From an uncultured Candidatus Saccharibacteria bacterium (GTDB taxonomy: Bacteria > Patescibacteriota > Minisyncoccia > Phycocordibacterales > UBA6899): DNA of 64,000 nucleotides. Of the stretch, positions 10,962 through 19,049 are shown in pieces. The translations under genes and the position numbers were made by a program. Each line of letters opens with the position of its first letter. Position 1 is the stretch's first letter. The stretch lies in assembly GCA_964469335.1 (NCBI GenBank), contig CAYXYK010000003.1, forward strand, positions 3,315 to 67,314, written 5' to 3'. The notes beneath the pieces were generated by a model. That model was not told the DNA's origin and did not search any database. It worked only from the letters and a program-made list of their open reading frames with translations.

Positions 10962-12160
10962 AACTCCTGATGTACTCAACCGACCGGGCACTCTTTGATG
11001 AGGAGTCACCTGTGCGCGCCAGACTTCTTGAACAGGCGAATCTCGCCACCACACTCGATGTGGTCGTATTCACTCCGCGAGGTGAAAAATTCAAACAGTT
11101 CAAGCTTGGTCGCAAACTCACCATACATCCGACCACATCGTCGTCGAAGTTCTCGTATTTGTCTGATGCATATAAGCTTGGCAAAAGCATTCTTGAGAAC
11201 GCAGAGGATAAGAGTAAGTGGCTCATCACCACTCAGGATCCATTCCTGACCGGAGCTATTGGCTTTTTTCTCTCACGAAAATTCTCCATACCACTTCATC
11301 TCCAGCTTCATACCGACCCATGGAGCCGTGAGTGGCGAGCGGAACGTCTGCGCAATAAATTCGAGCTACTCATCGCCTCATTCCTGCTCACCCGTGCAGA
11401 CGGTGTACGAGTGGTATCACAGCGAGTGAGGGCTTCTGTGCTTTCCCTCGGAGTGACACCTGACAAGATCACTCGTGTGCCGATCTGGGTGGATACGAAG
11501 ATGTTCAGGGAGGGTATCCCGAATTTCGATCTACATCGTACCTATCCTGAATTCTCGAACATCATTCTCTCCATCGGAAGATTGCAACCAGAGAAGAATT
11601 ATACGAAACTCATCAAGGTGTTCGCGCACATCTCACGTGTTCATAGTGATGCGATGCTCATCATCGTCGGTTCGGGTCCCGAACGTGAGCGATTGGTGAA
11701 TCTTTCCCGAACACTCGGTATCGACAAGGCGGTCGTGATCCTACCTTGGGCACGTGACGTCGTTTCGTATTATAAGACTTCCGACATCTATGTGCAGCCG
11801 TCACTCTATGAAGGTTGGTGCCTCACAGCTATCGAAGCGATGTCGGCTGGGACTCCCGTTGTCATGACCGACGTTGGCTGTGCAGGCGAAGTGGTCAGGA
11901 ACGAAGAAACAGGGCTGGTGGTCCCCACTCAAAGTGAGGAGGCACTCACACTTGCGCTGAACAGACTAATCGAGGATAGTACCCTGCGGGCAACATTGTC
12001 CCTCGCTGGGAAGGAAGAGAGTAAACGGCTTGCCACTAAAGAAGAGACGCTGGCGTTATATAAACAAAGCTGGGAAAAAGCATTCGGCAAGAAGGAAACG
12101 AAACATCCAACGAAAAAGAAAACAACTGAACGTGGAACAAAAACAAAAAAGAAATCCTAG
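10958..12160 (+). CDS. GT4 family glycosyltransferase with Lys-rich C-terminal tail
   Basis: EGWCLTAIEAMSAGTPVVMTDVGCAGEVV motif. Its 4-nt start overlaps the previous stop (ATGA). The C-terminus is KKETKHPTKKKTTERGTKTKKKS. Confidence 0.8.
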   Translation: MKLLMYSTDRALFDEESPVRARLLEQANLATTLDVVVFTPRGEKFKQFKLGRKLTIHPTTSSSKFSYLSDAYKLGKSILENAEDKSKWLITTQDPFLTGAIGFFLSRKFSIPLHLQLHTDPWSREWRAERLRNKFELLIASFLLTRADGVRVVSQRVRASVLSLGVTPDKITRVPIWVDTKMFREGIPNFDLHRTYPEFSNIILSIGRLQPEKNYTKLIKVFAHISRVHSDAMLIIVGSGPERERLVNLSRTLGIDKAVVILPWARDVVSYYKTSDIYVQPSLYEGWCLTAIEAMSAGTPVVMTDVGCAGEVVRNEETGLVVPTQSEEALTLALNRLIEDSTLRATLSLAGKEESKRLATKEETLALYKQSWEKAFGKKETKHPTKKKTTERGTKTKKKS

Positions 12161-12167
12161 AATTGTC

Positions 12168-13127
12168 GTGATCGGAGGGGGTACCGGAACTTTTACCGTG
12201 CTTTCCGGACTCAAACATTACCCGGTAGACCTTACCGCTGTGGTAACGATGGCGGACGACGGGGGCTCGACCGGAGTACTACGTGATGAGTTCGGTGTAC
12301 TTCCGCCAGGGGATGTGCGACAGTGTTTGGTGGCACTTGCAGATGAGGATCTCCTCATGCGTAAACTCTTCAATCATCGCTATGACAGAGGTTCACTCAA
12401 GGGGCATAGCTTCGGCAATATCTTCATCTCGACACTCGAACAGGTTGCGGGGAGTATCGATAAAGCGATCGATGTCGCCGCGAATATCCTGAATGTCCGC
12501 GGGCGTGTCGTTCCCGTCACGCTCGACCAGATCGCGCTGCACGCAGAACTCAATAACGGCAAGATACTCAATGGTGAGAGTGCGCTCATGGAGTATCAGC
12601 TGGTTTCCAAGTATGGGATCAAGAAGATATATCTCGACCCAGCAGGAAAGGCGAATCCGAAAGCACTCAAGGCAGTCGCAGAAGCGGATCTCATTGTTGT
12701 CGGGCCAGGAAAGCTCTATACATCGATACTGCCGAACTTCCTTGTTAAAGGCGTTCCGCGCGCTTTTGCACGTTCGAAAGCCAAGAAAGTGTTCATTGCG
12801 AACCTGATGAGTCAGCAGGGACATACCGATAATTTCTCCGTTTGTGATTATGTCGAAGTGCTTGAAGCATATATAGGAAAGCATGTATTCGACACCATTC
12901 TTTTCAATACCAAGAAACCCCCTCAAGCATTGGTACGCCGCTATGCTGATGAGGGTGAGCCGGTCGTCTGCACTGAGGAATGTAAGAAGAGTGGTTATGA
13001 ACTTGTCGGGAAAGACCTGCTTGCAGAGGGGATAGCGAACACGCCAAAGAAAGACCTGCTCCGCCGCACGCTCATTCGGCACGATTCCGACAAGCTTGCG
13101 AAGGCGATAATCAAGCTTCTGGGATAG
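12168..13127 (+). CDS. yvcK: YvcK/CofD-like (UPF0052, gluconeogenesis-factor / UDP-GlcNAc-binding) family protein
   Basis: IVVIGGGTGTFTVLSGLKHYPVDLTAVVTMADDGGSTGVLRDEFGVLPPGDVRQCLVAL matches the YvcK family signature. The start is uncertain. The track ATG at 12030 gives a Lys/Arg-rich extension that overlaps 130 nt of the upstream gene in an A-rich stretch. I prefer the GTG at 12168, just after the upstream stop. Confidence 0.7.
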   Translation: MIGGGTGTFTVLSGLKHYPVDLTAVVTMADDGGSTGVLRDEFGVLPPGDVRQCLVALADEDLLMRKLFNHRYDRGSLKGHSFGNIFISTLEQVAGSIDKAIDVAANILNVRGRVVPVTLDQIALHAELNNGKILNGESALMEYQLVSKYGIKKIYLDPAGKANPKALKAVAEADLIVVGPGKLYTSILPNFLVKGVPRAFARSKAKKVFIANLMSQQGHTDNFSVCDYVEVLEAYIGKHVFDTILFNTKKPPQALVRRYADEGEPVVCTEECKKSGYELVGKDLLAEGIANTPKKDLLRRTLIRHDSDKLAKAIIKLLG

Positions 13128-13156
13128 TTGACAATATCTTAATTATCTGCTACTAT
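13128..13156 (+). promoter_or_regulatory. putative sigma70-like promoter TTGACA-17-TACTAT heading high-GC cassette 3
   Basis: A consensus -35 TTGACA at 13128-13133 and TACTAT at 13151-13156. It is followed by a leader of about 150 nt before the small ORF at 13317. Confidence 0.4.
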
Positions 13157-13316
13157 ATTTTCATATCGTTCTTTGATTCATACCCCTTTCCGACTTTACT
13201 TTGTCGGTCAGGCTCAACTCTGTGATGAGAAGAACTCTCAAATACGCTCGCAAGAGACGTAATCCGTCCACGAAGTGGGCATGTGCTAGTGTGCTTTCAC
13301 CAAAGGAGAAATATCC

Positions 13317-13496
13317 ATGGAATGGGTTCTCGTGATCTTTCTGCTGGTCCAAGGCCAATCGGCTGCGATCGGCAAGATCGAAGGTTTCCCAACCGAACAG
13401 GCATGTAACGATGCTTGGAACAAGATTCTCAAGGATCGGGCACAGGCAGGCCAGGCTGGGTCTTGGCTAAACCTGAGCTGTGTGCGAAAGAAATAG
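13317..13496 (+). CDS. small (59 aa) putative secreted/membrane peptide with two Cys, not in the ORF track
   Basis: ATG at 13317 is preceded by AAAGGAGAA (GGAG at 13305-8, spacing 8). Translation is MEWVLVIFLLVQGQSAAIGKIEGFPTEQACNDAWNKILKDRAQAGQAGSWLNLSCVRKK*, with stop TAG at 13494-6. It has a hydrophobic N-terminus resembling a signal peptide. Its 59 codons are just below the 60-aa track cutoff. Confidence 0.5.
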   Translation: MEWVLVIFLLVQGQSAAIGKIEGFPTEQACNDAWNKILKDRAQAGQAGSWLNLSCVRKK

Positions 13497-13594
13497 CATA
13501 CCAACAAAAGACGTTTTCAAGGATTTGTGCAGTATGCACGAATAGTCGTATCCATACCATTGGATGCATCACCCCACTATCAAGGAGAAGAGGA

Positions 13595-14500
13595 ATGCAA
13601 CTCAAGAAACACGAAGACCGTCTCGCGGTCGTCATTCGCACGTTCCAAGCGGGCGCACGCGTCGCTGGCAGCAACAAGGAGTGGAATCCCGTGACGTTCG
13701 AAAAGAGCGTGCGCGACCCTCTCTCAGCGTTGATCGACTCGGCACCACCTTCGCTTGCTCGCGTCATCATCGTTTCCTGTGGTGACAACAACTCGCCGTT
13801 GCGGGAGATGGTCGACGCCGAAGGGAAGACCCCGACGATGCGCGCAGTGCAGCAGGCGTTCCCGGAGGAGATCGCGCGTGGTTTCATCAAGGCCGTGCTC
13901 GATCCGAACTGGGGCAAGAATGCCGGAAGTGCATCGGCGCTCAATGTCGGCTGGCGTGCCGCTTCTGACGACGGCGACATCAACCTCGTCTTGTCGTGGA
14001 ACCCGGACTTCCACTTGCCCGGGCACACGCTCGCCGCCGGACTCGAGCACATGCGCCGTTACTTCCTGCCGATCTGCGGCTTCTACCGAGAAGGCTGGTA
14101 CCAACGATTCCAGTGGAACATGTTCCAGAACACCGCCACCATCTACAAGATGGAGTTCCTCAAGGAGCATGGCGGCTTCTCTCCGCGTTGCGATGGTAAT
14201 GCTGACGAGACGGTCGACGTAGGCGGTACCCCGGTGCGCCTCGCCGGCATGGATGACTTCTACGCTTATCTCACGGCAATGAAGCACATCGGCGCTGCGG
14301 TCCCTTGGGGGATGTACGGCGTGATGAAGGCATCCGATTGGGAGATCGAATTCGCCGATGACCCGCTGAAGCAGAAGATGTTCGACGAGAAGGTTCGTCG
14401 TCAACTCGTCGTGATGCAAGCCTGGGCGAAGGAGATCTTCCCGGATGTCCCGTTCTGGACCTTGATCGCCGAGATCTTCCAGATGCTGCGGCAAGCCTGA
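13595..14500 (+). CDS. hypothetical protein, possibly GT-A-fold (GT2-like) glycosyltransferase
   Basis: I chose the start at ATG 13595 (MQLKKHEDRLAVVIRTF), which follows AAGGAGAAGAGG, rather than 13415. The weak GT-A-like pattern is LAVVIRTF...ALNVGWRAASDDGDINLVLSWNPD. It lies in the high-GC cassette. Confidence 0.5.
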   Translation: MQLKKHEDRLAVVIRTFQAGARVAGSNKEWNPVTFEKSVRDPLSALIDSAPPSLARVIIVSCGDNNSPLREMVDAEGKTPTMRAVQQAFPEEIARGFIKAVLDPNWGKNAGSASALNVGWRAASDDGDINLVLSWNPDFHLPGHTLAAGLEHMRRYFLPICGFYREGWYQRFQWNMFQNTATIYKMEFLKEHGGFSPRCDGNADETVDVGGTPVRLAGMDDFYAYLTAMKHIGAAVPWGMYGVMKASDWEIEFADDPLKQKMFDEKVRRQLVVMQAWAKEIFPDVPFWTLIAEIFQMLRQA

Positions 14501-14562
14501 GTTCCAACCATACCCGAGTGGAGCGATTCCGCTTGGGACTTCAACTGAAGGAGAGCAGATAT

Positions 14563-15045
14563 ATGATCTCACACGACAAGCAGGAAGAACTCTACCGCTT
14601 CGTGGCAAGCCGCTTCGGCATGAACGACAAGCCCAGGCTGCATCTCACCGGACTCTTCACCACCGGTGGGTGCAATGGGCAAGCGGTGATCGAAGCCGGC
14701 TACAACATCGGGTATGTTGCAAGGCAGCTCACCGATGGGGAAATGCCGGACGGCGACGCACTCGAGGCGGTGTACGAGAAGCTCAGTGCACCGTTCGCGA
14801 ACTACCAGCCGGTCGGGCACGACTCGTACTGGGAGGAAGATGCCTACCATGCGAATGCCCTCCACATCCTCCGGGTGCACAAGGAGCTCATCTTCCGCAT
14901 CGCACGCGAGCTCTGGGACCTTTTCCCGGAGATCCACCAGCGGTTCGGCGAGCATGCTCCCGGAATGGAACCGGCAACCTTCTTCCGTGAGCACATGGGT
15001 GGCTTCGCTTTCCAGTGGGTCGAGCTCGATCGGGGTAAGAAATAG
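14563..15045 (+). CDS. hypothetical protein (160 aa)
   Basis: ATG 14563 follows AAGGAGAG. No motif recognised. It is the last gene of the high-GC cassette. Confidence 0.55.
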   Translation: MISHDKQEELYRFVASRFGMNDKPRLHLTGLFTTGGCNGQAVIEAGYNIGYVARQLTDGEMPDGDALEAVYEKLSAPFANYQPVGHDSYWEEDAYHANALHILRVHKELIFRIARELWDLFPEIHQRFGEHAPGMEPATFFREHMGGFAFQWVELDRGKK

Positions 15046-15081
15046 CACGCACCCAAGCTCGATGCGCGCTTCGTTCTTTTG

Positions 15082-15114
15082 AAACCTCATGAGGAAACTC
15101 ATGGGGTTTTTGTT
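15082..15114 (+). terminator. rho-independent terminator
   Basis: AAACCTCATGAG-gaaa-CTCATGGGGTTT forms an 11-bp stem with one G-U pair, followed by TTTTTGTT. Confidence 0.55.
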
Positions 15115-15125
15115 ATACTGTTTCT

Positions 15126-16070
15126 ATGGACGATACAGAGCGCGATGCACTGAAACTACTCGAACGTAACCGCGTTGGGGCGCTTTTACGCGTATACGCA
15201 TATACGCCCGAAGCAGTTGATTTCCAGATAAATTCTGCGATGCAGGCACTGCGCAGACTGTTGGTACTTCGCACAGGAGGAAGGCAGACATTCAATCGTA
15301 TCGACTTTCTTGTATCGAGCGACCCTGACTTTGAAGACACCGACTGCGGACTCATGACAGAACGGCTGCGTGATGCAGTTCGGTCGGAATTCCCGGATGC
15401 ACCGGTGAATGTGTCCGAAATAAAGAAAGGAGACATCTACTGCATGCTGCTCAATTATGGTGTTGCCAACCAACTCGAGGATCGTATCGCATACTCTATG
15501 ATCATTTCCCATGCCGCATCGAGCTACGCGACAGCGGAGACGGTCAACGGTCTCCTCGCAGCGATGTACAACAAGGCACGGGTCGCTGGAGTTGCTATCA
15601 ATGAGCTTGCGCCGCTTGTCTCACGCGGGCTATTGATGAACACATTCATCATGTGGCACAACAAAAGCCTGATGACGATCGGCGGATTCGATCTCATTGC
15701 CGCTAAGCCTGCACTTGTCCATGCCCACACCAGAGAGAAAGTGAAGGGATGGAGTGACAAGAAAGCCGAGCGGCACGGAGACGGCAATGTCGAATACCAC
15801 GTCGCTGGCTGCGAAGAGATCATTCCGCTCACTCGATTTGTGCGATTTTTCGGTAAGTGTCTCCAAGTTGTTGAGCCAGTCGGGACAGAGATGGAATGGG
15901 TCGAACCCGATATGGAAAAGGATAGCAGAGCATACCATCGACATCTTGCAAAACTTGCGACCAAAGTGGAGCGCCAAAAACGTATGGCTGCTACCCAAGG
16001 GGTCGATCTCGAGTTCATACAGAGGGGGCTGATGGATGCCAATATAGACAAGGAATCCGGAAGTATATAA
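15126..16070 (+). CDS. hypothetical protein (314 aa)
   Basis: Long ORF with no motif recognised. The ATG lies 6 nt after TGTTATACT, an extended -10-like element, so the mRNA may be leaderless. Confidence 0.55.
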   Translation: MDDTERDALKLLERNRVGALLRVYAYTPEAVDFQINSAMQALRRLLVLRTGGRQTFNRIDFLVSSDPDFEDTDCGLMTERLRDAVRSEFPDAPVNVSEIKKGDIYCMLLNYGVANQLEDRIAYSMIISHAASSYATAETVNGLLAAMYNKARVAGVAINELAPLVSRGLLMNTFIMWHNKSLMTIGGFDLIAAKPALVHAHTREKVKGWSDKKAERHGDGNVEYHVAGCEEIIPLTRFVRFFGKCLQVVEPVGTEMEWVEPDMEKDSRAYHRHLAKLATKVERQKRMAATQGVDLEFIQRGLMDANIDKESGSI

Positions 16071-16089
16071 TATTGCCCTCACAAGACAT

Positions 16090-17052
16090 ATGAAAATTCT
16101 CATCACAGGCATCGGAGGAGCGATCGGTTCACATGTCGCAGAAGCGCTCTTGGCGCGTAACGACGAAGTCATTGGCATCGACAATCTTGATCCGTACTAC
16201 GATCCGCGCATCAAACAGCTCAACATCAAAGATGTCGAGCAAGCAGGGGGCAAGGTGGTGATCGCGGACATCAACACACACGACCTCAGTACTTTCGGTG
16301 ACGTTGATGCGATACTCCACTTCGCAGCGCAGCCCGGAATTTCCGCAGGTACGAGTTTTGACCACTATGTGAAAAATAATATCAGCTCGACCCATAAACT
16401 ACTCAGTTATGCACTTGCAAAGCCTGATCTTAAAGCATTCGTGCATATTTCGACATCGTCGGTGTATGGAACGACAGCAATGGGAAGTGAGGAAGAACTC
16501 CCTCGTCCGACTTCACCCTATGGTGTCACCAAACTCGCTGCAGAACAGCTCGCACTCTCAAAATTCCGCAGTGACAAGCTCCCGGTCACGGCACTCCGCC
16601 TTTTTTCGGTATTCGGTCCACGCGAGCGCCCCGAGAAGCTCTACCACAAACTCATCCATGCCATCGAGACAGGGAACACTTTCCCACTCCACGAAGGCAG
16701 CGAGAAGCATCTGCGTAGCTTCACCTACATCGATGACATCGTTGACGGTGTCACTCGCGCACTGGATCGTATCGATAAGGCACAGGGTGAGATCATCAAT
16801 ATCGGCACCGAAGAGTTACGCACTACCGGTGATGGGATCGCTATTATCGAACGCATCACCGGGGTGAAGGCCCCGCTCACAAAGAGCCCTCCTCGCTACG
16901 GTGATCAACGGGAGACCCACGCAAAGATCGCAAAAGCGAAGGATCTACTCGGCTTCACCCCAAAGGTGACCCTCGAAGAGGGACTCAAGCGTCAGTATCA
17001 GTGGCATAAGGAGAAGCTTCTTCCCCACCTCGAACGCGACGAACAAAAATAG
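16090..17052 (+). CDS. NAD-dependent nucleotide-sugar epimerase (SDR, UDP-glucuronate/UDP-glucose 4-epimerase-like)
   Basis: ILITGIGGAIGSHVAEAL Rossmann motif. HISTSSVYG and YGVTKLAAEQL give the SxnYxxxK catalytic pattern of extended SDR epimerases. Confidence 0.8.
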   Translation: MKILITGIGGAIGSHVAEALLARNDEVIGIDNLDPYYDPRIKQLNIKDVEQAGGKVVIADINTHDLSTFGDVDAILHFAAQPGISAGTSFDHYVKNNISSTHKLLSYALAKPDLKAFVHISTSSVYGTTAMGSEEELPRPTSPYGVTKLAAEQLALSKFRSDKLPVTALRLFSVFGPRERPEKLYHKLIHAIETGNTFPLHEGSEKHLRSFTYIDDIVDGVTRALDRIDKAQGEIINIGTEELRTTGDGIAIIERITGVKAPLTKSPPRYGDQRETHAKIAKAKDLLGFTPKVTLEEGLKRQYQWHKEKLLPHLERDEQK

Positions 17053-17256: not shown

Positions 17257-18192
17257 ATGGAAAAAACAATAGGATTCATCGGGCAGGGTTGGATCGGGAA
17301 GAACCTCGCGGACAATTTCGAGCGACGTGGGTATAAGACCGTACGCTATGCCAAAGAGAAGCCGTATGACGCGAACCTCGAGAAACTCAAGAATGCAGAT
17401 ATCATCTTCATCGCGGTGCCGACCCCTACGACGCCGGAAGGATTCGACGACAGTATCCTACGTAGTGCGATCAAACTTGCGAAACCCGGACAAACAGTCG
17501 TCATCAAGTCAACGGTACTTCCTGGAACAACGGACAGCATCGCAGACGAGAATCCCGGGGTCTTCATCATGCATTCGCCTGAATTCTTGCGCGAGATGTC
17601 GGTGAAAAAAGATATCGAAAAGCCCGAGCGCAACATCATCGGGATCCCCACTCGATACAAAGATGATCCTGAGTGGAGAAAGCGTGCGGAAGAGGTACTC
17701 GCGGTGATACCGAACGCCCCATACGAAGTGATCTGCAGCGCACCTGAGGCTGAACTCACTAAATACGGCGGGAATAATTTCTTCTACGTGAAGGTGGTGT
17801 ATATGAACATGCTCTACGAACTCGCCCAGCACCACGGGGCATCCTGGGATGTGGTTGCGAAAAATATGGTCGCAGATTCGCGCATCGGCGCATCGCACAT
17901 GCAACCGGTCCATCAGATCGCGCATCTCGACAACGGTGTGCCCGGACGCGGGGCAGGTGGACACTGCTTCCTCAAGGATTTTGCCGCGTTACGATTCCAT
18001 TATGAAGAGAAGTTTCCCGATCACTCCCATATGCATTCACTTCTGCGCTCCTTCGAGGCGACGAATAATTATCTCCTCAAGTCGACCAACAAAGACAAAG
18101 AGCTCCTTCTTGGTGTGTATGGAGAGGATGTCCTTTGTGTCTGCAAGATCACCGATAAATCGAGTGTGTGCGTCTGTGGTGTGAATAAATAA
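17257..18192 (+). CDS. short UDP-glucose/GDP-mannose 6-dehydrogenase-family protein (paralog 1)
   Basis: IGFIGQGWIGKN NAD-binding N-terminus. GAGGHCFLKD matches the catalytic-Cys motif GGxCFxKD of the nucleotide-sugar dehydrogenase family. At only 311 aa it is shorter than canonical three-domain enzymes. Confidence 0.7.
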   Translation: MEKTIGFIGQGWIGKNLADNFERRGYKTVRYAKEKPYDANLEKLKNADIIFIAVPTPTTPEGFDDSILRSAIKLAKPGQTVVIKSTVLPGTTDSIADENPGVFIMHSPEFLREMSVKKDIEKPERNIIGIPTRYKDDPEWRKRAEEVLAVIPNAPYEVICSAPEAELTKYGGNNFFYVKVVYMNMLYELAQHHGASWDVVAKNMVADSRIGASHMQPVHQIAHLDNGVPGRGAGGHCFLKDFAALRFHYEEKFPDHSHMHSLLRSFEATNNYLLKSTNKDKELLLGVYGEDVLCVCKITDKSSVCVCGVNK

Positions 18193-18197
18193 TAGCT

Positions 18198-19049
18198 ATG
18201 GATACCAAAAGCATCACGATAGGCGTCATCGGGCAAGGATACGTCGGCAAGAATTATGCCGATAATTTCGAGGATAGGGGTTTTGTGGTGGTGCGGTACA
18301 GTCTCGACCTGGTGCATGCAGCGAATAAGTCGAAGATACCGCAAGCGGATCTCGTCATCATCGCCGTCCCGACTCCGACGAAGAACGGCGCGTTCGATGA
18401 TTCGCTCGTGCGTGACGCACTCAGCGGCCTTCGTAAGGGACAGATTGTGGTCATCAAGTCGACGATACAGAAGGGGACAACCGACAAGCTGCAACAAGAC
18501 CACATGCATCTTGTTCTCATGCATGTTCCGGAATTTTTACGCGAAGCGTACGCGCGTGAGGATGTCGATTTTCCTTCCCGTAACATCATCGGGCTCGGTG
18601 CCGACACTCCCGCGCATCATGAAGCGGCGAAACTTGTCGAAGAAATCTTCCCAAAGGCGAAGCACACCATGAAGGTCCCTGCGGTTGACGCGGAATTCAT
18701 CAAATACACTCATAACACGATGGGGGTGATGATGATCGTGTATACCAATCTTCTCTATGATCTTGCGCGCGAGCATGGGGTCGAATGGGAGTCGGTCAAA
18801 GACGCCATCCTGCATAACCCTTGGTTTCCCGAGAAATATCTTGACCCCATCCACAAGGATGGGCGCGGAGCGGGCGGCAGCTGTTTCATCAAAGACTTTG
18901 CCGCGCTTGTTGAATCGTATCAAGCACGACTACCGAATGACAAAGAGGGGATCGAACTCCTGCAGGCGATCGCAAAGAAGAATAATCGACTCTTGCGAGA
19001 CACAGGGAAAAGCATACCCATCCTCAACGAAGTCTACGGAGATGAGTAA
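18198..19049 (+). CDS. short UDP-sugar 6-dehydrogenase-family protein (paralog 2, tandem)
   Basis: IGVIGQGYVGKN and GAGGSCFIKD motifs. It is collinear with and clearly homologous to the upstream gene (both carry VVIKST...PEFLRE...NIIG). Confidence 0.7.
   Translation: MDTKSITIGVIGQGYVGKNYADNFEDRGFVVVRYSLDLVHAANKSKIPQADLVIIAVPTPTKNGAFDDSLVRDALSGLRKGQIVVIKSTIQKGTTDKLQQDHMHLVLMHVPEFLREAYAREDVDFPSRNIIGLGADTPAHHEAAKLVEEIFPKAKHTMKVPAVDAEFIKYTHNTMGVMMIVYTNLLYDLAREHGVEWESVKDAILHNPWFPEKYLDPIHKDGRGAGGSCFIKDFAALVESYQARLPNDKEGIELLQAIAKKNNRLLRDTGKSIPILNEVYGDE

What the first reader, a model, noticed from the sequence alone, without database searches (positions are those of the whole stretch)
13163..13496. 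Unannotated 59-aa secreted Cys-containing peptide with long structured leader behind a consensus promoter
The ORF at 13317-13496 is below the track's 60-aa cutoff. It has a near-ideal Shine-Dalgarno (AAAGGAGAA at 8-nt spacing) and a hydrophobic N-terminus (MEWVLVIFLLVQGQSAA) followed by a roughly 40-aa polar domain with two cysteines. It is the first gene behind a consensus TTGACA-17-TACTAT promoter. A leader of about 150 nt contains hairpins, for example CCGAC-tttacttt-GTCGG. It could be a small exported effector, bacteriocin-like or signalling peptide, or a regulatory leader peptide for the two downstream unknown enzymes.
Basis: seen in the sequence. Interest (0 to 1): 0.55.

Follow-up and report, generated by a model that had tools for sequence, protein, structure and literature searches.

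The report
Small gene inside new leader RNA
The 59-codon gene is real but rare and is not shown to be secreted; the more important result is that its "structured leader" is a conserved, previously undescribed 78-nt RNA element that follows strong promoters in front of cell-surface sugar-chain genes in ultra-small (Patescibacteria) bacteria.

Summary

**The ORF is a genuine protein gene.**
- Against a 94%-identical relative, 9 of 11 substitutions fall on third codon positions (p = 0.0014).
- One distant homologue (36-42% identity) keeps both cysteines.
- The family has only two clusters among 5.8 billion proteins, and the gene is absent from the more distant homologous cassettes.
- Export is unproven. 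There is no basic residue before the hydrophobic run, and AlphaFold2 models that run as a beta strand.
- It is neither a leader peptide nor bacteriocin-like.

**The main result is the leader.**
- Bases 13165-13242 are a 78-nt structured RNA beginning a few bases after the predicted transcription start.
- I found 22 copies (20 distinct) in Patescibacteria-type contigs. Each lies behind a TTGACA promoter (one has TTGATA) and 19-95 nt before a gene with a Shine-Dalgarno sequence.
- In 96.7% of sequence-pair cells the pair is a standard one. All 8 pairs of the inner helix covary.
- Rfam 15 has no match.
- The downstream genes are mostly unannotated GT-A-fold glycosyltransferase-like proteins in glycan loci.
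- In the window, the 59-aa gene sits inside this ancestral leader.

Regulatory mechanism is inferred, not shown. My preferred reading is that a factor binds two repeated CUNNACUYU boxes.

The parts
13128..13156 (+). Sigma-70-type promoter: -35 TTGACA (13128-13133), 17-nt spacer with TG at 13149-13150, -10 TACTAT (13151-13156). Predicted start about 13163-13165. It begins directly after the stop codon of the CofD/YvcK-like gene (12030-13127).
   Evidence: 10 of 12 matches, the best in 4 kb. A TTGACA (TTGATA in one copy) sits at the same distance upstream of all 22 motif copies.
13165..13242 (+). 78-nt conserved structured RNA motif at the 5' end of the transcript. P1a is 13168-13174 paired with 13229-13235. 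A 3x3 internal loop carries tandem G.A/A.G (GA 13175-13176, GA 13227-13228). P1b is 13178-13182 paired with 13221-13225. P2a is 13185-13188 paired with 13209-13212. P2b is 13191-13194 paired with 13203-13206. The conserved 3' tail UCUCAA is 13236-13241.
   Evidence: Covariance models R1 and R2 score it 98.8 and 94.2 bits, and it is the only copy in the window. It folds alone at -21.3 kcal/mol, z = -3.4, with the minimum-free-energy structure at 72% of the ensemble. Over 20 distinct sequences, 96.7% of cells are paired, 8 pairs change on both sides, 0 of 500 shuffles reach the covariation score, and slid controls give 44-55% paired.
13194..13202 (+). Box 1, CUUUACUUU (consensus CUNNACUYU), in the terminal loop of P2.
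   Evidence: It sits at the same position (about 30) in most copies. It is identical to box 2 in L001 copy b. AC changes to AU in both boxes in L011 and L048.
13213..13221 (+). Box 2, CUCAACUCU, in the single-stranded 3' side of the asymmetric internal loop between P2 and P1b.
13243..13316 (+). Lineage-specific leader of the 59-aa gene. Hairpins at 13243-13261 (GCAA tetraloop), 13266-13280 and 13283-13294. Shine-Dalgarno GGAG at 13305-13308.
   Evidence: Fold. It is 93% identical to L001 with no indels. It is absent from the more distant leaders.
13317..13496 (+). 59-aa protein gene (MEWVLVIFLLV...C30...C55...RKK), a member of a two-cluster orphan family.
   Evidence: Of 11 substitutions against L001, 9 are at codon position 3, 2 at position 2 and 0 at position 1 (p = 0.0014). 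Homologue P0011 is 69 aa (E 2.8e-4 by exhaustive phmmer; pairwise 36% identity over 66 aligned columns) with both Cys, W and KDR conserved. A profile search finds only these 2 clusters.
13497..13594 (+). Remaining 3' part of the ancestral leader, now the spacer between the 59-aa and 301-aa genes. It holds a tail remnant UUUUCAAGG (13514-13522), P3 hairpin 13523-13543, P4 hairpin 13548-13567, and Shine-Dalgarno GGAG 13584-13587.
   Evidence: It aligns with the post-motif leaders of L108, L013, L113, L059 and others. Fold. For P3 over 13 leaders: 87% paired, 4 pairs with changes on both sides, covariation score reached by 0 of 500 shuffles.
13595..14500 (+). 301-aa protein with no Pfam, NCBIfam or PDB sequence match and a predicted GT-A (GT2-like) glycosyltransferase fold. 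Its family is the gene most often found behind the motif.
   Evidence: Searches are negative. AlphaFold2 gives pLDDT 80.5 and pTM 0.83. Foldseek against PDB finds RmlT, K4CP, hyaluronan synthase, TarS/TarP and GtrB, with E down to 9e-8 and 148 hits at E <= 1e-3. Only 6 homologue clusters exist. Motif copies precede homologues in L009, L010, L011, L013, L045, L100, L102, L113 and L115.
14563..16070 (+). Two further unannotated genes that are probably in the same transcription unit: 160 aa (14563-15045, or 175 aa from GTG 14518) and 314 aa (15126-16070).
   Evidence: Searches find no family. The same order occurs in L001 and L009. The consensus scan finds no terminator-like site on the + strand in 12500-16500. 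Remote similarity of the 314-aa family to the 301-aa family is inconclusive (hhalign E 0.027, probability 1.8%, 248 collinear columns).

Best explanation
The finding has two parts.

**1. A new RNA family (shown).** Bases 13165-13242 belong to an undescribed family of 78-nt structured RNAs. Each copy forms the extreme 5' end of an mRNA made from a near-consensus promoter in Patescibacteria-type bacteria. The RNA is one long hairpin:
- an outer helix P1 of invariant sequence, with a tandem G.A/A.G internal loop;
- an inner helix P2 that covaries freely;
- two copies of a C/U-rich box, CUNNACUYU, one in the terminal loop and one in an internal loop;
- a conserved UCUCAA tail.

Most leaders continue with two more hairpins (P3, P4), a further CUCAAC-like box and then the Shine-Dalgarno sequence.

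**2. What it does (inferred).** It is a cis-regulatory leader that puts a scattered set of envelope-glycan genes under one control. These genes are GT-A-fold glycosyltransferase-like proteins, an EamA transporter, a Gfo/Idh/MocA oxidoreductase and small membrane or hydrophobic proteins. My preferred mechanism is that a trans-acting factor, probably a dimeric RNA-binding protein, recognises the two identical boxes held by the hairpin. It would then control translation initiation and/or mRNA stability, much as CsrA-type regulators use one site in a hairpin loop and one near the ribosome-binding site.

**3. The 59-aa ORF.** It is a genuine, lineage-specific small protein gene. Together with about 75 nt of its own leader, it lies inside the ancestral leader of the 301-aa glycosyltransferase-like gene, between the 78-nt motif and P3 (shown). 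It is therefore expressed under the same promoter and motif (inferred). Its own function and location are unknown. It is either a small exported two-cysteine protein or a small soluble beta-beta-alpha-beta protein.
For: **RNA family**
- Seven leaders were found through protein homology alone, upstream of proteins only 63-66% identical (six of the seven; the seventh precedes an unrelated 148-aa gene in L001). They share the element, and 7 pairs show compensatory changes.
- With pattern scans and covariance models the set grows to 22 copies, 20 distinct.
- 96.7% of cells are paired, against 44-55% when partners are slid. All 8 P2 pairs change on both sides. None of 500 shuffles reaches the covariation score.
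- Frequent G-U pairs (17 of 20 at one P1b pair, 8 of 20 at one P1a pair) only work on the + strand, so this is RNA in the sense of the genes.
- All copies share one anatomy: TTGACA (TTGATA in one copy) about 38 nt upstream, the motif starting a few nt after the predicted start, and a start codon with a Shine-Dalgarno sequence 19-95 nt downstream.
- Tandem copies head consecutive genes in L001, L059, L100 and L108.
- No Rfam 15 family matches, in the window or in 7 other loci, even at E up to 10 and 1 respectively.
- Four literature searches found no description.

**Boxes**
- They sit at fixed positions and are identical in L001 copy b.
- AC changes to AU in both boxes in L011 and L048.

**P3**
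- P3 covaries.

**Split leader**
- Window 13497-13594 aligns with the tail, P3, P4 and Shine-Dalgarno region of other leaders.

**ORF is a real gene**
- Codon-position bias gives p = 0.0014. The ORF is 93.9% identical to L001, like the neighbouring gene (93.6%), while the spacer is 76% identical with indels.
- A distant homologue exists with conserved Cys, W and KDR.

**Glycan context**
-.
Against: - No experiment or expression data supports transcription, the 5' end or any regulation.
- P1 is supported by thermodynamics and by one-sided (U-A to U-G) changes only, never by changes on both sides. Its invariance is partly forced by my search patterns.
- No candidate RNA-binding protein was identified. 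No regulator gene was found among the 43 window proteins scanned against Pfam (of about 60 ORFs of 100 aa or more).
- The concerted AC-to-AU change in both boxes rests on two sequences that may share ancestry.
- No conserved mutually exclusive structure (expression platform) was found, so how binding would change expression is undefined.
- Distance to the start codon varies from 19 to 95 nt, which is awkward for a single fixed mechanism at the ribosome-binding site.
- The scans were pattern-limited, so distribution and gene association are incomplete.
Confidence: 0.6

Rival explanations
1. The 78-nt motif is a riboswitch aptamer. It would bind a small molecule, for example a nucleotide-sugar or another envelope precursor, and switch the downstream glycan genes on or off.
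For: - The loops and junctions have conserved sequence and the helix covaries, as in aptamers.
- It always lies in a 5' UTR, in the sense orientation, before a functionally coherent gene set.
- Tandem G.A motifs occur in several riboswitches (general knowledge).
- Pyrimidine-rich segments could pair with the purine-rich Shine-Dalgarno sequences (my inspection).
Against: - No conserved terminator or Shine-Dalgarno-sequestering alternative to P1 was found. No terminator-like site lies on the + strand.
- The motif is one long, stable, unbranched hairpin (-21 kcal/mol, 72% of the ensemble), not a junction or pocket with a marginal P1.
- Spacing to the start codon ranges from 19 to 95 nt, with or without P3 and P4.
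- Two copies of one box fit a dimeric binder better than a ligand pocket.
Confidence: 0.2
2. The motif has no sensor role. One version is that it is a 5'-terminal stabiliser or processing hairpin that protects against 5'-end-dependent RNases or is an RNase III site. The other is that it is a processive-antitermination RNA of the kind used in polysaccharide operons (EAR, put, LoaP-type leaders).
For: - The hairpin starts about 4-5 nt from the predicted 5' end, the geometry known to protect mRNAs (general knowledge).
- The window is a 64-kb, almost unidirectional glycan locus, where antitermination is common in other phyla.
Against: - A stabiliser does not need invariant loop, junction and P1 sequences across lineages whose downstream proteins are 37-66% identical.
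- For antitermination: copies recur every 0.6-1.2 kb before single genes (L059, L100, L108). In L001 one copy heads a 148-aa gene that ends in its own strong terminator. The motif is therefore not placed to carry polymerase through a long operon.
- No NusG-paralogue gene was seen among the window proteins scanned.
Confidence: 0.15
3. The key element is the peptide: a Sec-exported, disulfide-bonded small effector, bacteriocin or signalling peptide, or else a regulatory leader peptide for the downstream enzymes.
For: - A 9-10-residue hydrophobic run starts at residue 3, followed by a small-residue motif S-A-A before I18.
- Two conserved cysteines lie 25 residues apart, which is typical of exported proteins rather than cytoplasmic ones.
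- The polar domain has a net positive charge.
- There is a strong Shine-Dalgarno sequence.
- Envelope-related neighbours and other motif-led genes encode small hydrophobic proteins.
Against: - No basic residue precedes the hydrophobic run in either homologue. Instead there is a conserved E, unlike the canonical signal peptide in the same window.
- AlphaFold2 gives a confident beta-beta-alpha-beta model with the N-terminus as a strand, though from a shallow alignment.
- There is no double-glycine leader, and no ABC/C39 transporter, immunity gene or modification enzyme nearby.
- The leader-peptide idea is contradicted by purifying selection on the protein and by a stand-alone homologue.
- The ORF is missing from homologous cassettes.
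Confidence: 0.25
4. The conserved sequence acts at the DNA level. The two direct CTNNACTYT repeats, 19 bp apart, and the GTTCTT/AAGAAC inverted repeat just downstream of the start site would be operator sites for a transcription factor. The RNA fold would be incidental.
For: - P1 and the boxes are conserved in sequence rather than by covariation.
- Their position, from +5 to +70, suits a roadblock repressor.
- Direct repeats are typical of response-regulator sites (general knowledge).
Against: - All 8 P2 pairs show compensatory changes. G-U pairs are tolerated on the + strand only.
- P3 also covaries.
- The orientation is always in the sense of the gene.
- A DNA operator does not explain these features, although it could coexist with an RNA role.
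Confidence: 0.1

Closest known systems
CsrA/RsmA-type protein-binding mRNA leaders
   Same: They have short repeated single-stranded boxes, one presented in a hairpin loop and others nearer the ribosome-binding site. They sit in the 5' leaders of a dispersed regulon, and a dimeric protein bridges two boxes.
   Different: The box here is C/U-rich (CUNNACUYU / UCUCAAC), not A(N)GGA. The boxes are embedded in a fixed 78-nt hairpin with a tandem G.A loop. No CsrA-like or other binding protein has been identified. This is an analogy of mechanism only.
EAR (eps-associated RNA) and other polysaccharide-operon leader elements (JUMPStart/ops-RfaH, LoaP leader hairpins, Bacteroides UpxY 5' UTRs)
   Same: They are conserved leader elements specific to surface-polysaccharide gene clusters.
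   Different: There is no Rfam hit to EAR or any other family. Copies recur before single genes, including one that ends in a terminator, rather than once per long operon. No NusG paralogue was seen.
Orphan riboswitch candidates from comparative genomics (Breaker-laboratory motif collections, now in Rfam)
   Same: The evidence type is the same: a 5' UTR location, covariation, conserved junctions and association with a gene set.
   Different: It is not among the 4227 Rfam 15 models. It is an unbranched hairpin with no recognisable expression platform. Its taxonomic range (Patescibacteria) is poorly sampled by those studies.
Tandem sheared G.A internal loops and box C/D-like kink-turn motifs (L7Ae, YbxF/YlxQ binding sites)
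   Same: The 3' strand of P1 reads GUGAUGA (box C consensus RUGAUGA), opposite UGA on the 5' strand. This gives G.A/A.G followed by N.U, as in the non-canonical stem of a k-turn.
   Different: The 3-nt bulge that defines a k-turn cannot be placed without breaking P1b (my inspection of A7). As drawn it is a symmetric 3x3 loop. No binding was tested.
Sec signal-peptide-bearing small cysteine peptides and class II bacteriocin precursors
   Same: The peptide has an N-terminal hydrophobic run, a small-residue motif before a polar domain of about 40 aa, and two cysteines.
   Different: The n-region is acidic with no K/R. There is no GG leader and no transporter or immunity gene. No family matches in Pfam or NCBIfam, and there is no structural match.

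Membership tests
Any Rfam 15 RNA family | Covariance-model match at or near the gathering score | tested here: not met
   Window 12000-15000 at E <= 10 gave only a chance CRISPR-DR8 hit inside the CofD gene. The whole window at gathering score gave 0 hits. Seven other motif-bearing loci at E <= 1 gave nothing on any motif copy.
Riboswitch | Conserved structured aptamer in a 5' UTR, with covariation | tested here: met
   96.7% paired, 8 pairs changed on both sides, 0 of 500 shuffles reach the covariation score.
Riboswitch | Expression platform: a terminator or Shine-Dalgarno-sequestering helix mutually exclusive with the aptamer | tested here: inconclusive
   No + strand terminator-like site was found. 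P3 and P4 are conserved hairpins without consistent U-tracts. Short leaders lack them. No conserved alternative pairing was identified.
Riboswitch | Direct, specific binding of a small-molecule ligand | not testable with these tools
   This needs in-line probing or calorimetry.
Processive antitermination RNA (EAR, put) | One element near the operon start that lets polymerase read through downstream terminators of a long operon | tested here: not met
   Copies occur in tandem before single genes (L059 3299 and 3894; L100 1219 and 2288; L108 3855 and 5054). One also precedes a monocistronic 148-aa gene with its own terminator in L001. There is no sequence or structure match to EAR in Rfam.
Kink-turn (box C/D-like) | C-stem, 3-nt bulge, tandem sheared G.A/A.G, NC-stem | tested here: inconclusive
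   The tandem G.A/A.G and the GUGAUGA sequence are present and conserved. A 3-nt bulge cannot be placed without breaking P1b, so the loop is symmetric. This is sequence inspection only.
Sec (SPase I) signal peptide | Positively charged n-region | tested here: not met
   The N-termini are M-E-W and M-Q-E-W, with no K/R before the hydrophobic run in either homologue. A canonical example in the same window is MKELMM....
Sec (SPase I) signal peptide | Hydrophobic h-region of 7-15 residues followed by small residues at -3 and -1 | tested here: met
   WVLVIFLLV followed by S-A-A before I18. The equivalent site in P0011 is less clear.
Sec (SPase I) signal peptide | Positive call by a trained predictor (SignalP, Phobius, DeepTMHMM) | not testable with these tools
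   No such predictor was available. AlphaFold2 models residues 2-11 as a beta strand.
Class II bacteriocin or signalling-peptide locus | Double-glycine or Sec leader plus an adjacent transporter, immunity gene or sensor kinase | tested here: not met
   There is no GG motif. The neighbours are CofD-like, GT4, GT-A-like and epimerase genes. PADLOC and PHROGs were not scanned.
Attenuation leader peptide / regulatory uORF | A short ORF whose translation, not its product, matters, so the amino-acid sequence is not conserved and it overlaps alternative RNA structures | tested here: not met
   Of 11 changed codons, 9 are synonymous and 2 are not, with changes by codon position 0/2/9. The homologue at 36-42% identity is a stand-alone gene with its own promoter and terminator.
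GT-A fold (GT2-like) glycosyltransferase, for the 301-aa neighbour | Rossmann-like GT-A fold | tested here: met
   The AlphaFold2 model has pLDDT 80.5 and pTM 0.83. Foldseek gives probability 1.0 to RmlT, K4CP, hyaluronan synthase, TarS, TarP and GtrB, with query-normalised TM about 0.42-0.51.
GT-A fold (GT2-like) glycosyltransferase, for the 301-aa neighbour | Sequence membership (Pfam Glycos_transf_2 or similar) and a catalytic DxD motif in place | tested here: not met
   There is no Pfam, NCBIfam or PDB sequence hit. The placement of a DxD motif was not examined in the model. It has the fold of the family but is not a sequence member.

The most novel reading that the evidence does not exclude
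The 78-nt element would be the aptamer or sensor domain of a new, Patescibacteria-specific regulatory RNA class. It would sense a metabolite or a host-derived signal and switch a dispersed regulon that remodels the cell-surface glycan of these epibiotic bacteria. The 59-aa two-cysteine protein, captured inside one such leader, would be an exported factor co-regulated with surface remodelling.
Probability: 0.15. Interest if true: 0.85.

Novelty: new variant of a known kind. Interest (0 to 1): 0.62.

Why it matters
Patescibacteria (the Candidate Phyla Radiation) have tiny genomes and few recognisable regulators. My four literature searches found no description of a lineage-specific regulatory RNA of this kind for them.

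This element is short and strongly conserved, and it shows clear covariation. It is tied to near-consensus promoters in front of surface-glycan genes, which are the genes most likely to shape attachment to host cells and escape from phages or host defences. It therefore offers:
- a concrete, testable handle on gene regulation in this group;
- a marker for a regulon made largely of unannotated GT-A-fold proteins;
- a natural strong promoter and leader module for genetic tools in Saccharibacteria.

The 59-aa protein is of lesser importance. It is a very rare orphan, and its position inside the leader shows how genes are captured into the regulon.

Tried and rejected
- **Word-indexed protein search with the peptide:** it found only the peptide's own 90% cluster. 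Exhaustive phmmer added one true homologue. It also gave one weak partial hit, P0012, a 343-aa repeat protein sharing only a PTEQAC stretch, which I treat as chance. A profile search added nothing.
- **The search for related loci in the GTDB genomes with the 301-aa protein:** no confirmed relative.
- **Loose DNA pattern in genome contigs:** 72 hits, of which only 4 loci (L017, L045, L048, L059) were real by covariance model. The rest were chance, as expected from the pattern's information content.
- **L097, L117, L118 and L120:** these scored 30-49 bits but lie inside a 340-aa ORF on the other strand, with no promoter. I rejected them as false positives and removed L097 from the covariation count.
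- **Integron attC-like recombination site:** rejected. The order and sequence of the terminal repeats (GTTCTTT...AAGAAC) do not fit RYYYAAC...GTTRRRY. The element is tied to promoters and gene starts, and its G-U pairs are strand-specific.
- **Type IV pilin-like processing at G23-F24:** rejected, because no hydrophobic stretch follows and the E is not conserved in the homologue.
- **Hammerhead-like CUGAUGA core:** rejected, because the sequence is GUGAUGA in a plain helix context and Rfam gave no hit.
- **Structure search with the peptide model:** no significant match (best E 0.2).
- **Remote homology between the 301-aa and 314-aa families:** inconclusive.
- **Second motif copy in the window:** none with filters off (next best 13 bits).
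Full report
**1. Checking the observation**

- TTGACA (13128-13133), a 17-nt spacer ending in TG, and TACTAT (13151-13156) form the best sigma-70-like site in 12500-16500. It scores 10 of 12, with 7 sites found against 2.8 expected in shuffles.
- It starts directly after the stop codon of a CofD/YvcK-like gene (12030-13127; Pfam CofD, E 6e-94).
- The ORF runs from ATG 13317 to TAG 13496 (59 aa). GGAG lies at 13305-13308, 8 nt upstream.
- The hairpin CCGAC-tttacttt-GTCGG is at 13190-13207.

**2. Is the ORF a gene?**

Yes.
- The identical protein is already in public gene calls (NCBI and Logan). Its 90% cluster has four members that differ by G19D, Q43R or a two-residue N-terminal extension.
- I compared it with a related lineage (L001-L008, all carrying the same allele, so this is effectively one comparison). 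The ORF has 11 substitutions: 9 at third codon positions (all synonymous), 2 at second positions and none at first. The chance of at least 9 of 11 at position 3 is 0.0014.
- The ORF is as conserved (93.9%) as the neighbouring 301-aa gene (93.6%, substitutions 14/4/40 by codon position). The spacer after it is 76% identical with 12 gap positions.
- An exhaustive phmmer search of 1.84 billion representatives found one true distant homologue, P0011 (69 aa, E 2.8e-4). Pairwise identity is 36% over 66 aligned columns. E-W-hydrophobic run, GF, A-C, AWN, KDR and the second Cys are all conserved. A 9-residue insertion follows the hydrophobic run.
- P0011 lies on a 924-nt contig with its own TTGACA promoter and terminator, and without the RNA element described below.
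- A profile search of 5.8 billion proteins found only these two clusters.
- The gene is therefore real, very rare, and not a leader peptide.

**3. Is it secreted?**

This is not established.
- Both homologues lack any basic residue before the hydrophobic run and have a conserved glutamate there.
- In the same window, a lamin-tail-domain protein has a textbook signal peptide, MKELMMAFSITALFFAHSAFA|AVV.
- The hydrophobic run is 9-10 residues. The best Kyte-Doolittle 19-residue window is 1.61 in the window protein and 1.21 in P0011, too low for a membrane helix.
- AlphaFold2, with only four sequences, gave mean pLDDT 84 and pTM 0.63. The fold is beta(2-11)-beta(14-24)-helix(27-44)-beta(51-58), so the 'signal peptide' is modelled as a strand.
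- Foldseek found nothing significant (best E 0.2).
- On the other hand, two conserved cysteines 25 residues apart and an S-A-A motif would suit an exported protein.
- No signal-peptide predictor was available, so I leave this open at about 25-35% for export.
- Nothing supports a bacteriocin locus. The neighbours are glycan enzymes.

**4. The leader is the conserved thing**

- In the close relatives, an extra 148-aa gene lies between the CofD gene and the 59-aa gene. The promoter plus about 110 nt of leader occurs twice there, once before each gene.
- The 301-aa protein has only six homologue clusters. In the contigs that carry the 63-66%-identical ones, there is no 59-aa ORF.
- Those contigs do show the same promoter and a near-identical stretch of about 78 nt, in which the hairpin stem changes in a compensatory way: CCGAC/GTCGG, CGC/GCG, CTGAC/GTCAG, CCGC/GCGG.
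- RNAalifold on these seven leaders, which were found through proteins and not through RNA patterns, predicts a 20-pair hairpin with 7 compensatory pairs.
- I built covariance model R1. I scanned the GTDB genomes and the metagenome collection with degenerate patterns, then filtered the hits with the model.
- True copies came from two contigs of one Candidatus Saccharibacteria MAG (three copies), a MAG labelled Candidatus Lloydbacteria, an unclassified glacier-stream MAG, and groundwater and other metagenome contigs.
- Four hits of 30-49 bits lie inside a phage ORF on the opposite strand. I discarded them.
- The final set has 22 copies, 20 distinct.
- In this set, 96.7% of cells form standard pairs, against 44-55% when the 3' partners are slid by 1-3 columns. 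Eight pairs change on both sides. None of 500 shuffles reaches the covariation score.
- All eight covarying pairs are in the inner helix P2. The outer helices P1a and P1b are almost invariant in sequence and vary only U-A to U-G. My patterns partly forced this, but P1 is already invariant in the seven protein-derived leaders.
- G-U pairs are frequent, so the structure works only on the + strand. It is RNA, in the sense of the genes.
- The window copy (13165-13242) scores 98.8 and 94.2 bits and is the only copy in the 64 kb, even with filters off.
- On its own it folds into the consensus structure: -21.3 kcal/mol, 72% of the ensemble, z = -3.4.

**5. Anatomy shared by all copies**

- TTGACA (TTGATA in one copy) lies about 38 nt upstream, followed by a -10 element. 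The motif starts about 4-5 nt after the predicted start.
- P1a is GUUCUUU paired with GAAGAAC.
- A 3x3 internal loop carries tandem G.A/A.G. Its 3' strand reads GUGAUGA.
- P1b follows, then a two-nt 5' joiner, then P2 with a small internal loop.
- The terminal loop is CUNNACUYU. The 3' single-stranded joiner has the same consensus, CUCAACUCU. A UCUCAA tail follows P1.
- The two boxes are identical in one copy (L001 b). Both change AC to AU in L011 and L048.
- Most leaders then carry P3, an 8-9-bp hairpin (AUUUGCGCA...UGCGCAGAU). Over 13 leaders it is 87% paired, has 4 pairs changed on both sides, and none of 500 shuffles reaches its covariation score.
- After P3 come a short P4 hairpin, another CUCAAC-like box and the Shine-Dalgarno sequence.
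- Short leaders (19-34 nt after the motif) have only the motif.

**6. The 59-aa gene sits inside such a leader**

- The spacer between the 59-aa and 301-aa genes (13497-13594) aligns with the post-motif part of other leaders. It has a tail remnant UUUUCAAGG, P3 at 13523-13543, P4 at 13548-13567, a pre-SD segment, and GGAG at 13584-13587.
- In the window lineage, a segment of about 280 nt (13243-13522) lies between the motif and P3 of the ancestral leader of the glycosyltransferase-like gene. It carries three small hairpins, a Shine-Dalgarno sequence and the 59-aa ORF.
- This explains why the ORF is missing from more distant cassettes. It also means the ORF is expressed from the same promoter and motif.
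- The 148-aa gene in L001, flanked by two promoter+motif copies, is another example of modular gain or loss at these leaders.

**7. What the motif controls**

The genes directly downstream are as follows.
- Most often, the roughly 300-aa family of window gene 13595-14500.
- A 240-aa family.
- An EamA-type transporter.
- A Gfo/Idh/MocA oxidoreductase.
- A 306-aa relative of window gene 15126-16070.
- Small two-TM or hydrophobic proteins.
- The 148-aa and 59-aa proteins.

The 301-aa protein has no Pfam, NCBIfam or PDB sequence match. Its AlphaFold2 model (pLDDT 80.5, pTM 0.83) matches GT-A-fold glycosyltransferases: RmlT, chondroitin polymerase, hyaluronan synthase, TarS, TarP and GtrB. E reaches 9e-8, with 148 hits at E <= 1e-3.

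Among the 43 window proteins scanned, the families found are almost all glycan-biosynthesis ones: many GT4s, a GT2, epimerases and dehydratases, UDP-sugar dehydrogenase-like proteins, DegT aminotransferases, methyltransferases, GtrA, a Wzx-like flippase, a deacetylase and sugar nucleotidyltransferases. Almost all are on the + strand.

**8. Mechanism**

- Shown: a conserved, structured, strand-specific RNA lies at the predicted 5' end of a set of envelope-glycan mRNAs.
- Inferred: it is a cis-regulatory leader.
- I favour recognition by a trans-acting, probably dimeric, RNA-binding factor (about 35-40% among mechanisms). The reasons are as follows.
  - The element shows two copies of one box on a rigid scaffold.
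  - The boxes change together.
  - A third similar box often lies next to the Shine-Dalgarno sequence.
  - The hairpin is too stable and unbranched for a typical aptamer.
  - No expression platform is conserved.
- A riboswitch remains possible (about 20%).
- A pure 5' stabiliser does not explain the invariant loops.
- Processive antitermination does not fit tandem copies before single genes or a copy before a gene with its own terminator.
- A DNA operator does not explain the covariation or the G-U pairs.

**9. Comparison with known systems**

- No Rfam 15 family matches the window copy at E up to 10, the whole window at gathering score, or seven other loci at E up to 1.
- Four full-text literature searches found no description of a Saccharibacteria or Patescibacteria leader RNA of this kind.
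- The closest analogies are functional ones: CsrA-type leaders, polysaccharide-operon leader elements (EAR, ops/RfaH, LoaP, UpxY), orphan riboswitch candidates and tandem-G.A/k-turn-like protein sites. Membership of each was tested where possible and was not met or was inconclusive.

**10. Verdict**

- The peptide is a real but very rare orphan gene of unknown location.
- The 'structured leader' is an apparently undescribed RNA family that marks a glycan-gene regulon in Patescibacteria.
- Novelty: a new class within the known kind 'structured cis-regulatory mRNA leader'.
- Interest: 0.62.

Noticed in passing
window 12001-13241 versus 13142-16199, compared with L001: DNA identity to the L001 lineage jumps from about 82% upstream (GT4 and CofD genes) to about 94% downstream (59-aa gene through the 314-aa gene). 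The break is exactly at the promoter and motif. This suggests recombination or exchange of the downstream cassette at the repeated leader.
   Followed up: partly
L001 3628-4282 (absent from the window at 13128-13165): Relatives carry an extra 148-aa gene of unknown function with its own promoter+motif copy and a strong terminator. It is flanked by two copies of the promoter and leader. The window has a single copy and no such gene.
   Followed up: partly
window 13595-14500, 15126-16070; L059 4043-4963 and 5077-6021: Two unannotated protein families of about 300 aa share N-terminal (V/L)(V/I)IR(T/V)F, an NT..W....L...GGF motif and an AG(M/C)(D/E)(D/E) motif. The first has a GT-A fold by structure prediction. 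Profile-profile comparison of the two is collinear over 248 columns but not significant (E 0.027, probability 1.8%).
   Followed up: partly
window 1-64000: Of about 60 ORFs of 100 aa or more, the 43 scanned are almost all glycan-biosynthesis genes. Nearly all are on the + strand. No Rfam RNA and no recognisable regulator gene was found. GC content drops to about 42-45% at 51-56 kb.
   Followed up: partly
window 17257-18192 and 18198-19049: Two adjacent paralogous UDP-glucose/GDP-mannose dehydrogenase-like genes (311 and 283 aa) match only the N-terminal and central domains. No C-terminal domain hit was found.
   Followed up: no
L118 2067-2135, L117, L120, L097 (IMG/VR viral contigs and one metagenome contig): A sequence inside a 340-aa phage ORF, on the opposite strand, mimics the P1 strands and a hairpin of the motif. 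It scores 30-49 bits. It is a false positive to exclude in any wider search.
   Followed up: yes
L087 255-290: The only distant homologue of the 59-aa gene lies about 230 nt downstream of a tRNA- or tmRNA-like 3' end (GGTTCGATTCCCCTTCCTCCCCAGCCA) on a low-GC 924-nt contig. The Rfam scan at E <= 1 reported no RNA there.
   Followed up: no
window 13005-13039 (-): A weak CRISPR-DR8 Rfam hit (19 bits against a gathering score of 39, E 1.2) lies inside the CofD-like coding region. It is a single copy, and I judge it to be chance.
   Followed up: yes
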